Positions 29,001 to 32,000 of a stretch of 64,000 bases of DNA are shown one piece after another. How positions within the stretch are numbered: position 1 is the stretch's first letter; each line of letters opens with the position of its first letter. Position numbers: made by a program. This DNA is from Escherichia coli (GTDB lineage: Bacteria; Pseudomonadota; Gammaproteobacteria; Enterobacterales; Enterobacteriaceae). The DNA lies in the NCBI RefSeq assembly GCF_030013595.1, contig NZ_CP122768.1; one strand, 5' to 3'.

Positions 29001-32000
29001 TGCCAGACAGCGTGCTTTGTGCGGGCTATCAGGCGTTTTATTCTTACTCTGCGCCGCATATGCGGGTGATGCGTGATCTGATAAAGCAGCATCGTTCTCC
29101 CATGGAGCTGATGACGATGCTGCGGTGACGTGAGCTTAAACGGGCTGCCCCTGATGCGACATCCGCGTCGCCAGCGGTAGCCAGCACAGCACGATCAACA
29201 ATCCCATTAAGGTCATCAACAACCCCAGGCTGCCCTGACCGGTTTGCGGCAACATCGCAGAGAGCGACGCCAGCACGCCGGAACCAATGTTTTGCAGACC
29301 GCCGACCAGCGCGCCAGCCGTGCCCGCCAGGAAGGGGAACGGTTCCATCGCGCCGCTGGTCGCCAGCGGAAACAGCATCCCGGCACCGAAAAAGAACAGC
29401 GCGGCGGGAACGAGCAGCGTCCAGACATTCATCACGCCAAACCAGTCGGGGATCCACATCAGTAAGCCAGCCAGCAGGCAGCAGATAACCGACTGCCACA
29501 TCAACGTTGAGAAGCGTTTATTAGGACGTCCGGCAAACCATGCCCCAAAAAATGCCGCCGGAATCGGCAGAATAAACAAAATACTGACCGTCATACTGCT
29601 CAGCCCTAACACCGCGCCCATCAGCACGCCGGAGCAGGCTTCAAAGGCGGCAATCCCGGCCAGACCGCCAATCAGCATCAGCAAATAACAGTTAAAACCG
29701 CTGTTACCGAAAAGCGTTTTATAACTGGTAAGCAGGCGTGTGCGCGGTGCGTCGACCGGACGCGTTTCCGGCATCCAGCGGGCCATACTGAAGGTCACAC
29801 CGGCACAAAGTACCAACAAAAAGAGATAACAGGCGCGCCAGTTCCACATCGTATCCAGCAGACCGCCGATTAGCGGTGCGAGCAACGGACTGACAAGAAT
29901 CCCCATATTTAACAAGCTGTTAGCGTGGCGCAACTGTGTCCGTTCATATAAATCACGCGGCAAAGTACGCGCCATTACACCGCCAACGCCGGTGCCCATG
30001 CCCTGCATCGCGCTGGCGGCAATCAATACCGTCAAACTGGAGGTCGTGACCGCGACCAGCGTTGCCAGCATAAAAATGGACATTCCGACGAGGATCACCG
30101 GTCGGCGACCCACACGGTCGGAAATCGGGCCATAAAACAGCTGTGAGACACCGTAAGTCAGCAGATAAGCGCCCATTACGCTCTGCACCGCCCCTTCACG
30201 GACGTTGAGATCGCGCGCCATATCGGCAATAGCTGGAATATAAATGGTTTGCGCCATCTGACCGACGGCCACGAGTAATACCAACATCAATAACAAATTG
30301 ACGTTTCTATGCCTTTTCATTATCACGGATGCTTTTATAAAAATAATTAGAATAAGTCACTACGCATTCCCATAAATGCGGGAGAGGAATCTATCACATT
30401 GATAAATGTTAGCCAGATATACGCCAGGAATGGGGAATTGTTTAGCGGCAGAATATGTAAACAAAAGCGGCAATAAATGTTGCCGGGAGGGATGGTAGGG
30501 CGGATAAGATGCATCAGCATCGCATCCGACACCAACCCGCACGCTAAATATGAAAGGGGAGCGGTTACCCGCTCCCCTTTGGTGCGACTTGAATCTGAAT
30601 TACTTCAGGTATTTCAGAACAGCATCAAGCAGTTGCAGTGCTGCAACAATGAGTTTGAGGATAAGAATGGCGATATCCACCAGGCTCATACGCGTCTCCT
30701 GTGGTTCAGGAGCACTGCCAGCTGACGTACCTTTCCGCTGCCTGTTGCCAGCTGTTGTGCACGCGGTATCTCAAGGAGAAACGTTGTGCTTGTTGACATA
30801 ACACAGTGTGCTCACGCGGGGTTAAGGCGCTGACGGCACCACCCGTTTCAGCCAGGACTTAGTGCGCCGGGTAACGATGCGGCCCCCGCATAACACATTG
30901 CGTACAGTGATATTATAGAAGTTTACTGTATAAATAAACAGTAATATTTGGACAAAACGCAAACTGTGATCGATACTCAACTATGCACTAAATACGTCAA
31001 AATTCGTGCCGAAATTGCGCGTTTTGCGCGGAACACGTATACTTTCTGTGTTGACATAATACAGTGTGCTTTGCGGTTACCAGCCGCGGGCGGCTGACGA
31101 AACCTCGCTCCGGCGGGGTTTTTTGTTACCTGCAATTCAGTACAAAACGTGATCAACCCCTCAATTTTCCCTTGCTGAAAAATTTTCCATTGTCTCCCCT
31201 GTAAAGCTGTGCTTGTATAAATATTGTTAAACACAAAACCAACAAGGTCCCCAATGACTACTTCCATGTTCAACGCAAAACTACTACCAACTGCGCCATC
31301 CGCCGCAGTGGTCGTCGTGCGTGTGGTGGTGGTCGTCGGCAATGCGCCGTAGGGACTGGAACAACACACGATTCCAAAACCCCGCCGGCGCAAACCGGGC
31401 GGGGTTTTTCGTTTAAGCACCTCCCGGAAAGTCGGCCCAGAAGAAAAGGACTGGAGCATGGCAAGTTCGGGCACAACATCAACGCGTAAGCGCTTTACCG
31501 GCGCAGAATTTATCGTTCATTTCCTGGAACAGCAGGGCATTAAGATTGTGACGGGCATTCCGGGCGGTTCTATCCTGCCTGTTTACGATGCCTTAAGCCA
31601 AAGCACGCAAATCCGCCATATTCTGGCTCGCCATGAACAGGGCGCGGGGTTTATCGCTCAGGGAATGGCGCGCACCGACGGTAAACCGGCGGTCTGTATG
31701 GCCTGTAGCGGACCGGGTGCGACTAATCTGGTGACCGCCATTGCCGATGCGCGGCTGGACTCCATCCCGTTGATTTGCATCACTGGTCAGGTACCCGCCT
31801 CGATGATCGGCACCGACGCCTTCCAGGAAGTGGACACCTACGGCATCTCTATCCCCATAACCAAACACAACTATCTGGTCAGACATATCGAAGAACTCCC
31901 GCAGGTCATGAGCGATGCCTTCCGTATTGCGCAATCAGGCCGCCCTGGCCCGGTGTGGATAGACATTCCTAAGGATGTGCAAACGGCCGTTTTTGAGATT

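What the first reader, a model, noticed from the sequence alone, without database searches (positions are those of the whole stretch)
30600..31125. tisB-istR SOS toxin/antitoxin-RNA locus with a 21-nt direct repeat that creates antisense complementarity
The tisB toxin ORF reads out cleanly on the minus strand. A 21-nt segment (30792-30812) recurs at 31050-31070 with one mismatch. Because tisAB is transcribed leftward and the candidate IstR rightward, this direct repeat makes the small RNA complementary to the tisAB 5' leader, which is the known basis of IstR-1 control. A perfect LexA box lies between them. The S2 substitution in TisB and the single mismatch in the repeat are possible strain-specific differences.
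Basis: partly seen in the sequence, partly recalled or inferred. Interest (0 to 1): 0.55.

Follow-up and report, generated by a model that had tools for sequence, protein, structure and literature searches.

The report
Known tisB/istR SOS toxin-antitoxin locus
This is the well-studied E. coli tisB/istR-1 toxin-antitoxin locus, almost identical to the K-12 laboratory strain, so it is an ordinary and already explained feature.

Summary
The window is the first 64 kb of E. coli HCP5S3_I2. Positions 30600-31124 hold tisB (29 aa, passes both NCBIfam TisB models), a LexA box (30924-30943) and istR (Rfam RF01400, 145 bits, full length). The 21-nt repeat (30792-30812 / 31050-31070, one C/T difference) occurs nowhere else in the window and 0 times in shuffles. 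In RNA it gives a 21-bp IstR-1:tisAB duplex with one G·U wobble. Everything from 30686 to 31023 is identical to K-12. The repeat "mismatch" is also in K-12 and is fixed across E. coli (core exact in at least 97.5-99.4% of 4,358 locus-bearing genomes). Ser2 is the majority and ancestral TisB allele, and K-12's Asn2 is the minority form. Across 43 loci from more than ten enterobacterial genera the 21-bp core stays 97.9% paired, with compensatory changes at two positions, while the flanks pair at 42-46%. Side notes: one strain has deleted exactly the 258 bp between the repeat copies, and a third partial copy lies in the mRNA 5' end.

The parts
30553..30580 (-). Terminator hairpin downstream of tisB (AAAGGGGAGCGG-TTAC-CCGCTCCCCTTT)
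   Evidence: Perfect 12-nt inverted repeat with a 4-nt loop (I4). One loop base differs from K-12 (30567). The terminator role is inferred.
30600..30689 (-). tisB coding sequence, 29-aa membrane toxin, Ser2 allele (WP_000060506.1)
   Evidence: ORF. NCBIfam NF011340 69.9 bits (cutoff 53) and TIGR04459 61.5 bits (cutoff 38). RefSeq annotation.
30696..30700 (-). tisB Shine-Dalgarno AGGAG, 6 nt before the AUG, predicted to pair with an upstream CUCCU
   Evidence: Sequence. GGAG-N6-ATG is conserved in 13 other loci and in the leader alignment. Predicted unpaired probability of SD..AUG is 0.22-0.25.
30686..30799 (-). tisA ORF (37 codons), probably not a real gene; its AUG lies inside the IstR target
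   Evidence: ORF. No NCBIfam match. The start codon reads ACG in genera with the G7 repeat variant.
30792..30812 (-). IstR-1 target / ribosome standby segment of the tisAB leader (mRNA 5'-AGCACACUGUGUUAUGUCAAC-3'), left copy of the repeat
   Evidence: Identical to K-12. Exact 21-nt core in at least 4,333 of 4,358 E. coli genomes. 97.9% paired with the IstR 5' end across 34 distinct sequences.
30889..30900 (-). Third, partial copy of the repeat core (CATAACACATTG, 11/12), at about +6..+17 of the primary transcript; function unknown
   Evidence: D1. Chance 4 in 5,000 shuffles. Conserved at the same position in Escherichia, Salmonella and most Citrobacter species.
30912..30917 (-). tisAB promoter -10 hexamer TATAAT; transcription start inferred near 30905
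   Evidence: Sequence. TATAAT/TATACT is conserved at this position in 16 taxa. The start site is inferred from spacing and is consistent with the published +106 cut falling inside the duplex.
30924..30943 (.). LexA box TACTGTATAAATAAACAGTA overlapping the -35 region of the tisAB promoter
   Evidence: Sequence. Identical to K-12. CTGT-N8-ACAG is present in 41 of 44 enterobacterial loci.
30949..30977 (+). Promoter-like site for IstR-2 (TGGACA, 17 nt, GATACT)
   Evidence: The only sigma-70-like match in 30500-31300. It ends 8 nt before the mapped IstR-2 5' end at 30985.
30985..31124 (+). IstR-2 (140 nt), the longer isoform
   Evidence: MG1655 annotation 3853118-3853257 mapped through the ungapped alignment. 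The Rfam model covers 30995-31124.
31014..31043 (+). Inferred IstR-1 promoter (TTGCGC, 18 nt, TATACT)
   Evidence: Read from the sequence; inference only. Window SNPs 31024 (spacer) and 31047 (just before the start) differ from K-12.
31050..31124 (+). IstR-1 antitoxin sRNA (75 nt; 73 nt from 31052 by the MG1655 annotation): 5' tail, stem-loop, terminator
   Evidence: The two SNPs against K-12 (31088, 31093, A to G) turn U-A pairs into U·G pairs and leave the predicted fold unchanged (-31.2 vs -32.5 kcal/mol).
31050..31070 (+). IstR 5' pairing segment, right copy of the repeat
   Evidence: Exact core in at least 4,247 of 4,357 E. coli genomes.
31099..31124 (+). IstR intrinsic terminator (GAAACCUCGC-UCCG-GCGGGGUUUC hairpin followed by a U-run)
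   Evidence: and the Rfam structure line.

Best explanation
This is the chromosomal tisB/istR-1 type I toxin-antitoxin module of E. coli, lying between emrD and ilvB, and it most likely works as described for K-12.

1. LexA binds the box at 30924-30943 and represses the leftward tisAB promoter.
2. DNA damage lifts the repression and produces a primary transcript that cannot be translated, because the tisB ribosome-binding site is buried in structure.
3. Removal of the first 41 nt gives the active +42 mRNA. In it a single-stranded segment about 100 nt upstream of the tisB start acts as a standby site for 30S subunits.
4. IstR-1, transcribed rightward and constitutively, pairs its 5' tail (31050-31070) with that segment (the mRNA complement of 30792-30812). 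It blocks standby binding, and RNase III cleaves the duplex to give the inactive +106 mRNA.
5. When tisAB transcripts outnumber IstR-1, the 29-aa TisB peptide is made. It inserts into the inner membrane, dissipates the proton motive force and promotes dormancy.

Shown here: the sequence elements, their identity to K-12, the complementarity, and its conservation and co-variation. Taken from the literature: transcription, processing, standby binding, RNase III cleavage and toxicity.
For: - TisB passes both curated equivalog models.
- istR gives a full-length Rfam match at 145 bits.
- Gene order is emrD-ysdE-tisB-(istR)-ivbL-ilvB, as in K-12.
- There are only 8 differences from K-12 in 721 nt, and none between 30686 and 31023, so the promoter, LexA box, whole 5' leader and target are identical.
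- The duplex is 21 bp with one G·U, -33.5 kcal/mol.
- Both repeat cores are essentially invariant in 4,358 E. coli genomes.
- In 43 loci retrieved with a pattern that excluded the repeat, the core helix is 97.9% paired, against 42-46% for the 5-nt flanks on either side. For all 31 pairs together, pairing falls from 80.6% to 27-44% when partners are slid. Compensatory changes on both sides occur at two positions (raw pairs).
- 12 of 12 tested loci from other genera pass the Rfam istR threshold, and their TisB peptides pass TIGR04459.
- Mechanism: PMC4147584, PMC6690012, PMC7708055.
Against: No expression data exist for this strain. The tisAB start site is inferred from the -10 box, so +42 and +106 map only to within about 2 nt. 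The MG1655 annotation puts the IstR-1 5' end 2 nt inside the repeat, which would leave 19 rather than 21 repeat bases in IstR-1. The window carries a minority allele, T31047, just upstream of the IstR-1 start (667 of 4,357 genomes), and its effect on IstR-1 expression is unknown. Thermodynamic folding gave only a weak difference in target accessibility between the +1 and +42 forms (0.37 vs 0.47). Differences between the two repeat copies are not clearly biased toward wobble pairs (22 wobble cells against 15 mispaired cells).
Confidence: 0.96

Rival explanations
1. The two repeat copies are kept alike by a process at the DNA level, such as gene conversion between neighbouring direct repeats or a shared protein-binding site, and not by selection for RNA pairing.
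For: Concerted changes in both copies are also what gene conversion would produce. The copies can recombine: strain GMF054 has lost exactly the interval between them. Differences between the copies are not clearly biased toward wobble pairs. Both copies contain TTGACA.
Against: The repeat boundaries coincide with the 5' end of IstR-1 and with the published pairing and standby segment. They stay sharp across more than ten genera, while the flanks are unrelated. K-12 experiments show RNA pairing, competition with 30S subunits and RNase III cleavage at this site. The C/T difference has remained fixed across E. coli, which frequent conversion would erase.
Confidence: 0.02
2. The locus is present but functionally altered in this strain. 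The strain's SNPs change IstR-1 levels (T31047 just upstream of the start, T31024 in the promoter spacer) or TisB translation (codon 2), so the toxin-antitoxin balance differs from K-12.
For: T31047 is a minority allele (667 of 4,357 genomes). The Ser2 codon adds a G-C pair to a predicted hairpin that encloses the AUG, worth about -3 to -4 kcal/mol.
Against: The alleles are shared with hundreds to thousands of natural isolates, including O157:H7, so they are not defects. The -10 and -35 hexamers, the pairing segment and the IstR fold are intact. The energy differences are predictions only.
Confidence: 0.1
3. The longer IstR-2, which also contains the repeat plus one more matching base (31049), is the acting antitoxin, not IstR-1.
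For: IstR-2 spans the full 22-nt repeat. A promoter-like site precedes it, next to the LexA box.
Against: The papers read here attribute control to the constitutively transcribed IstR-1/IstR1 (PMC4147584; PMC7708055; IstR-1 also in PMC6690012). In the predicted IstR-2 fold, part of the pairing segment is base-paired internally. The extra base at 30791 is polymorphic in E. coli (T to C in 758 genomes) without any matching change.
Confidence: 0.03

Closest known systems
tisB/istR-1 of E. coli K-12 (tisB b4618, istR b4616)
   Same: Same chromosomal site, gene order and orientation. The tisAB promoter, LexA box, entire 5' leader, IstR target and IstR pairing segment are identical. The C/T difference between the repeat copies is the same.
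   Different: Eight substitutions in 721 nt: 30552 and 30567 in or beside the tisB terminator; 30685 (TisB Asn2 in K-12, Ser2 here); 31024 (IstR-2 5' hairpin loop); 31047 (just upstream of the IstR-1 start); 31088 and 31093 (IstR stem, U-A to U·G); 31129 (after the terminator). None touches the pairing region.
Other divergently encoded chromosomal type I toxin-antitoxin pairs of E. coli (dinQ-agrB, zorO-orzO, shoB-ohsC)
   Same: The small RNA is transcribed divergently from the toxin gene and is complementary to a short stretch of the long toxin 5' UTR, away from the start codon (PMC4147584). In DNA this kind of complementarity appears as a direct repeat, as it does here.
   Different: The toxins and RNAs belong to different families. 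The window's peptide and RNA match only the TisB and istR models.
hok/sok-type cis-antisense type I systems
   Same: A small hydrophobic toxin whose mRNA needs processing before it is active, and an antisense RNA that leads to RNase III cleavage.
   Different: Sok overlaps its target gene on the opposite strand. Here the antitoxin gene does not overlap tisAB at all (238 bp lie between 30812 and 31050), and complementarity exists only through the 21-nt repeat.

Membership tests
tisB/istR-1 type I toxin-antitoxin system | 29-aa hydrophobic TisB toxin ORF | tested here: met
   NF011340 69.9 bits (cutoff 53) and TIGR04459 61.5 bits (cutoff 38), both covering residues 1-29 of 29. One residue differs from K-12 (N2S).
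tisB/istR-1 type I toxin-antitoxin system | IstR small RNA gene, divergent from tisAB, with its own terminator | tested here: met
   Rfam RF01400, model positions 1-130 of 130, 145 bits against a gathering score of 45. Terminator found. Maps onto the MG1655 IstR-1 and IstR-2 annotation.
tisB/istR-1 type I toxin-antitoxin system | About 21 nt of complementarity between the IstR-1 5' end and the tisAB leader, roughly 100 nt upstream of the tisB RBS | tested here: met
   21 bp with one G·U, -33.5 kcal/mol. The target lies 103-123 nt upstream of the AUG. Conserved and co-varying in 43 loci.
tisB/istR-1 type I toxin-antitoxin system | LexA box at the tisAB promoter (SOS control) | tested here: met
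   TACTGTATAAATAAACAGTA at 30924-30943, immediately upstream of the TATAAT -10 on the minus strand. Identical to K-12. Conserved in 41 of 44 loci. LexA binding itself was not tested.
tisB/istR-1 type I toxin-antitoxin system | Location between emrD and ilvB | tested here: met
   Annotation of the identical record. The same position is stated for Escherichia in PMC9040746.
tisB/istR-1 type I toxin-antitoxin system | SOS-induced transcription, processing to +42, RNase III cleavage to +106, TisB toxicity | not testable with these tools
   Known for K-12 from the literature. The leader sequence here is identical to K-12, so transfer is a strong inference.
cis-antisense type I systems (hok/sok type) | The antitoxin RNA gene overlaps the toxin transcription unit on the opposite strand | tested here: not met
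   IstR (30985-31124) and the tisAB transcript (about 30905 down to 30550) do not overlap.

The most novel reading that the evidence does not exclude
First, the central G·U wobble is fixed in Escherichia, whereas every other genus sampled has a G-C pair there. It lies about 2 nt from the inferred RNase III cut that creates the +106 mRNA and could modulate cleavage or the rate of duplex formation. Second, the natural majority Ser2 codon strengthens a hairpin that encloses the tisB start codon, so K-12, in which all the mechanistic work was done, would be an atypically leaky variant. A related open point is the conserved third partial repeat copy at +6..+17, which could be a weak second IstR site on the unprocessed mRNA.
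Probability: 0.12. Interest if true: 0.3.

Novelty: already known. Interest (0 to 1): 0.08.

Why it matters
It matters little as a discovery. The locus, its regulators and its mechanism have been worked out in K-12 since 2004, and the sequence here is nearly the same. The useful outcomes are corrections and context:

- The repeat "mismatch" is a G·U wobble fixed across E. coli.
- The reference strain K-12 carries the minority TisB allele.
- The antisense pairing is conserved, with compensatory changes, across more than ten enterobacterial genera. This is a wider distribution than a 2022 survey reported.
- The direct repeat that provides the regulation is also a possible route to losing the locus by deletion.

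Tried and rejected
1. Thermodynamic folding of the +1, +42 and +106 mRNAs to reproduce the published opening of the standby site. The trend was weak (unpaired probability 0.37 vs 0.47), so it was not used as evidence.
2. A test for whether differences between the two repeat copies favour wobble pairs over mispairs. The counts were 22 wobble cells against 15 mispaired cells, arising from few independent events, so the test was inconclusive.
3. Four haloarchaeal matches to the scan pattern (L044, L047, L048, L053). They have no GTTGAC segment, no upstream copy, no LexA box and no TisB ORF, so I treated them as chance matches of a G+C-rich pattern.
4. A sub-threshold Rfam match to Pseudomonas P6 at 31378-31435 (20.6 bits against a gathering score of 50). 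It lies on a G+C-rich hairpin just downstream of ivbL and was rejected.
5. tisA as a real gene. It has no family match and its start codon is not conserved.
6. The long minus-strand ORF 30977-31474 (165 aa), and the related 'hypothetical protein' annotated in strain AL.H8. Both run antisense through istR and ivbL. I judged them spurious but did not test this further.
7. A search of the literature for the exact tisAB +1 coordinate. It was not found in the open-access texts I read, so the start site remains inferred.

Full report
**What the window is.** A 721-nt query around the finding matches the E. coli HCP5S3_I2 chromosome (NZ_CM149870.1, pig faeces, UK) at 100% identity and at the same coordinates, so the window is the first 64 kb of that record, starting at dnaA. 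The annotated gene order is emrD (29136-30320, minus), ysdE (30402-30476, plus), tisB (30600-30689, minus), ivbL (31254-31352, plus) and ilvB (31458-33146, plus).

**Checking the observation.**
- The tisB ORF reads MSLVDIAILILKLIVAALQLLDAVLKYLK.
- The repeat is GTTGACATAACACAGTGTGCT at 30792-30812 and GTTGACATAATACAGTGTGCT at 31050-31070, with one difference. It extends by one T to 22 nt.
- With up to three mismatches allowed, the pattern occurs only at these two places in 64 kb and never in 100 shuffles.
- The LexA box TACTGTATAAATAAACAGTA lies at 30924-30943.

**What it is.** TisB passes both curated NCBIfam equivalog models, at 69.9 bits (cutoff 53) and 61.5 bits (cutoff 38). Rfam's istR model matches over its full length at 30995-31124 with 145 bits against a gathering score of 45. 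The hand-curated MG1655 record annotates IstR-1 at 3853118-3853190 (73 nt), IstR-2 at 3853118-3853257 (140 nt) and tisB at 3853553-3853642. Through the ungapped alignment these map to window 31052-31124, 30985-31124 and 30600-30689.

Alignment with K-12 MC4100 shows 8 substitutions in 721 nt and none between 30686 and 31023. The tisAB promoter, LexA box, complete 5' leader and IstR target are therefore identical to K-12. The only promoter-like site the scan reports (TGGACA, 17 nt, GATACT, 30949-30977) sits just upstream of the IstR-2 start. By eye, TATAAT on the minus strand (30917-30912) follows the LexA box, and TATACT (31038-31043) precedes the IstR-1 start. The resulting tisAB start near 30905 is an inference. 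It places the target at about +94 to +114, the tisB AUG at about +217 and the published +106 cut inside the duplex.

**The repeat as RNA.** tisAB is read leftward and istR rightward, so the direct repeat makes the IstR 5' end complementary to the leader. The duplex is 21 bp. The single DNA difference becomes a G·U wobble (mRNA G opposite IstR U11). The predicted energy is -33.5 kcal/mol, against -35.4 for a fully Watson-Crick version. The two IstR substitutions relative to K-12 (31088 and 31093, A to G) convert U-A pairs to U·G pairs in the first stem and leave the predicted fold unchanged.

**Is anything strain-specific?** No.
- K-12 has the same C/T difference between the copies.
- The locus is present in 4,358 of 5,426 complete E. 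coli genomes.
- A 41-mer around the target is exact in 3,575 of these. A further 758 carry T30791C, which lies just outside the 21-nt core.
- A 41-mer around the IstR 5' end is exact in 667, and 3,580 carry the K-12 base at 31047, again outside the core.
- The two cores, and so the G·U, are therefore fixed in at least 99.4% and 97.5% of locus-bearing genomes.
- The Ser2 context of TisB is exact in 3,299 genomes and the K-12 Asn2 context in 1,000. Citrobacter, Salmonella and Enterobacter have Ser2. K-12 is thus the derived minority form.
- The roughly 20% of genomes without the locus fit the published absence from phylogroup B2 (PMC9040746). One such genome shows ysdE and ivbL separated by a short unrelated spacer.

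**Independent test across genera.** I scanned one genome per species with a pattern taken only from the IstR stem-loop and terminator, excluding the repeat. It returned 48 loci: 44 from Enterobacteriaceae and 4 haloarchaeal chance hits. All 42 enterobacterial loci with enough upstream sequence have a 14-25-nt direct repeat of the IstR 5' segment (19-25 nt in all but one, Kosakonia arachidis, at 14 nt with the one-mismatch search), with the two copies spaced 236-258 bp apart. Forty-one of the 42 have a TisB-like ORF on the opposite strand, and 41 of the 44 have CTGT-N8-ACAG. Twelve of twelve tested loci pass the Rfam istR threshold at 59-128 bits, and their 29-aa peptides pass TIGR04459.

On a concatenated alignment of target plus IstR from 43 loci (34 distinct sequences), the 21 core pairs are 97.9% paired:
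- 13 pairs never vary.
- 4 vary on one side only, as wobble pairs.
- 2 show compensatory changes on both sides (U-A to C-G in 6 sequences, and C-G to U-A in 10).

The 5-nt flanks on either side are 42-46% paired. For all 31 pairs counted together, pairing is 80.6% in register and 27-44% when the partners are slid by 1-3 columns. The pair next to the core on the IstR 3' side (IstR nt 22) is also always G·U or G-C, so the duplex is effectively 22 bp. An A·C mispair at IstR position 5 occurs in 11 of the 34 sequences. The G·U at IstR position 11 is found only in E. coli; the other genera have G-C.

**Mechanism.** This is taken from the literature for K-12 and transferred by sequence identity.
- LexA represses tisAB.
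- The primary transcript is translationally inert.
- Removal of 41 nt yields the +42 mRNA, whose single-stranded segment about 100 nt upstream of the sequestered RBS is a standby site for 30S subunits and protein S1.
- IstR-1 pairs there, blocks standby binding and triggers RNase III cleavage to the inert +106 form (PMC4147584; PMC6690012; PMC7708055).

Three results here are consistent with this. The SD..AUG region is predicted to be mostly paired in all isoforms. The block just downstream of the inferred +42 site (GUCCUGGCUGAAACGGGUGGUGCCGUCAG) is invariant in 16 taxa, and so is the target.

**Things noticed along the way.**
- Strain GMF054 has lost exactly the 258 bp between the two repeat copies and retains one hybrid copy. 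The deletion removes both promoters and the LexA box.
- A third partial copy (CATAACACATTG, 30889-30900, 11 of 12) lies at about +6 to +17 of the primary transcript. It arises by chance in 4 of 5,000 shuffles and is shared by Escherichia, Salmonella and most of the Citrobacter species sampled. Its predicted duplex with IstR is weak, -17.3 against -36.7 kcal/mol.
- The tisA start codon lies inside the target and is lost in genera with the G7 variant.
- The Ser2 codon adds a G-C pair to a predicted hairpin enclosing the AUG.

**Verdict.** The feature is already known and its interest is low.

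Noticed in passing
L004 711-731 (E. coli GMF054, NZ_CM183924.1); equivalent to window 30803-31060 missing: This strain has lost exactly the 258 bp between the two repeat copies and keeps one hybrid copy (GTTGACATAAC|ACAGTGTGCT) joined to the IstR body. The tisAB promoter, LexA box, leader 5' part and both istR promoters are gone. It is either a repeat-mediated deletion or an assembly artefact. It was seen in one of the 5,426 genomes searched.
   Followed up: partly
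window 30685 (TisB codon 2): Ser2 (AGC) is the majority E. coli allele (3,299 genomes against 1,000 with K-12's Asn2) and is the state in Citrobacter, Salmonella and Enterobacter. The G adds a G-C pair to a predicted hairpin enclosing the start codon (AUGAG/CUCAU), making the predicted mRNA about 3-4 kcal/mol more stable than in K-12.
   Followed up: partly
window 30889-30900: A third, partial copy of the repeat core (CATAACACATTG, 11/12) lies at about +6..+17 of the primary tisAB transcript, within the 41 nt removed by processing. It arises by chance in about 4 of 5,000 shuffles. It is conserved at the same position in Escherichia, Salmonella and most Citrobacter species, but not in Enterobacter or Kosakonia. 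Its function is unknown.
   Followed up: partly
window 30797-30799 (tisA start codon) and 30686-30799: The tisA AUG lies inside the IstR target. In genera where the repeat has G at position 7 the codon reads ACG, so the tisA ORF is not conserved. It also has no protein family match.
   Followed up: partly
window about 30756-30789: A 34-nt stretch of the leader just 3' of the IstR target is present in E. coli, Salmonella and Citrobacter sp. Awk 4, and absent from the 13 other taxa aligned, including six other Citrobacter. It is a lineage-specific insertion or deletion inside the tisA region.
   Followed up: no
loci L008-L055: istR with a divergent tisB, a LexA box and the repeat occurs in Enterobacter, Kosakonia, Lelliottia, Leclercia, Phytobacter, Siccibacter, Pluralibacter, Superficieibacter, Pseudenterobacter and Huaxiibacter. 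This is wider than the distribution stated in PMC9040746 (Citrobacter, Salmonella, Escherichia/Shigella and one Enterobacter).
   Followed up: partly
window 31047: The T three bases before the IstR-1 start is a minority allele (667 of 4,357 genomes, shared with O157:H7). K-12 and most strains have A. Its effect on IstR-1 expression is unknown.
   Followed up: partly
L005 (E. coli O157:H7), equivalent to window 30922 and 30925: O157:H7 carries two substitutions at the edge of the LexA box (TACTGT becomes TGCTGT, plus a change two bases outside the box), which could slightly weaken LexA binding.
   Followed up: no
L007 (E. coli MS20659) and about 1,070 other complete genomes: About 20% of complete E. 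coli genomes lack tisB-istR entirely. In MS20659, ysdE and ivbL are separated by about 245 bp of unrelated sequence. This matches the published absence from phylogroup B2.
   Followed up: yes
L003 (E. coli AL.H8), between window 30493 and 30525 equivalents; also L003 838-1128: There is an insertion of about 140 bp of repeat-like sequence beside the REP-like element between ysdE and tisB. In the same record, a 96-aa 'hypothetical protein' is annotated antisense through istR and into ivbL, and is probably a spurious call.
   Followed up: no
L042 (Enterobacter sp. EA-1): The TisB reading frame runs on past the usual stop into a long ORF, so the stop codon has been lost or the frame shifted in this genome.
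   Followed up: no
window 33705-36681, 37433-38935, 45854-46514, 48133-63979: Elsewhere in the window: two hypothetical genes inserted between ilvN and uhpA; uhpB annotated as a pseudogene with an internal stop; a RelE/ParE toxin with an HTH partner; and an accessory block with the inverse autotransporter iatC, eilA split by an IS1, and type III secretion translocator and needle-tip genes.
   Followed up: no
window 511-591, 6068-6110, 16239-16311: Other Rfam matches above threshold: AsdA (antisense RNA of dnaA), ES036/CssrF sRNA, and the ROSE_2 thermoregulator upstream of ibpA. No tRNA genes were found in the 64 kb.
   Followed up: no
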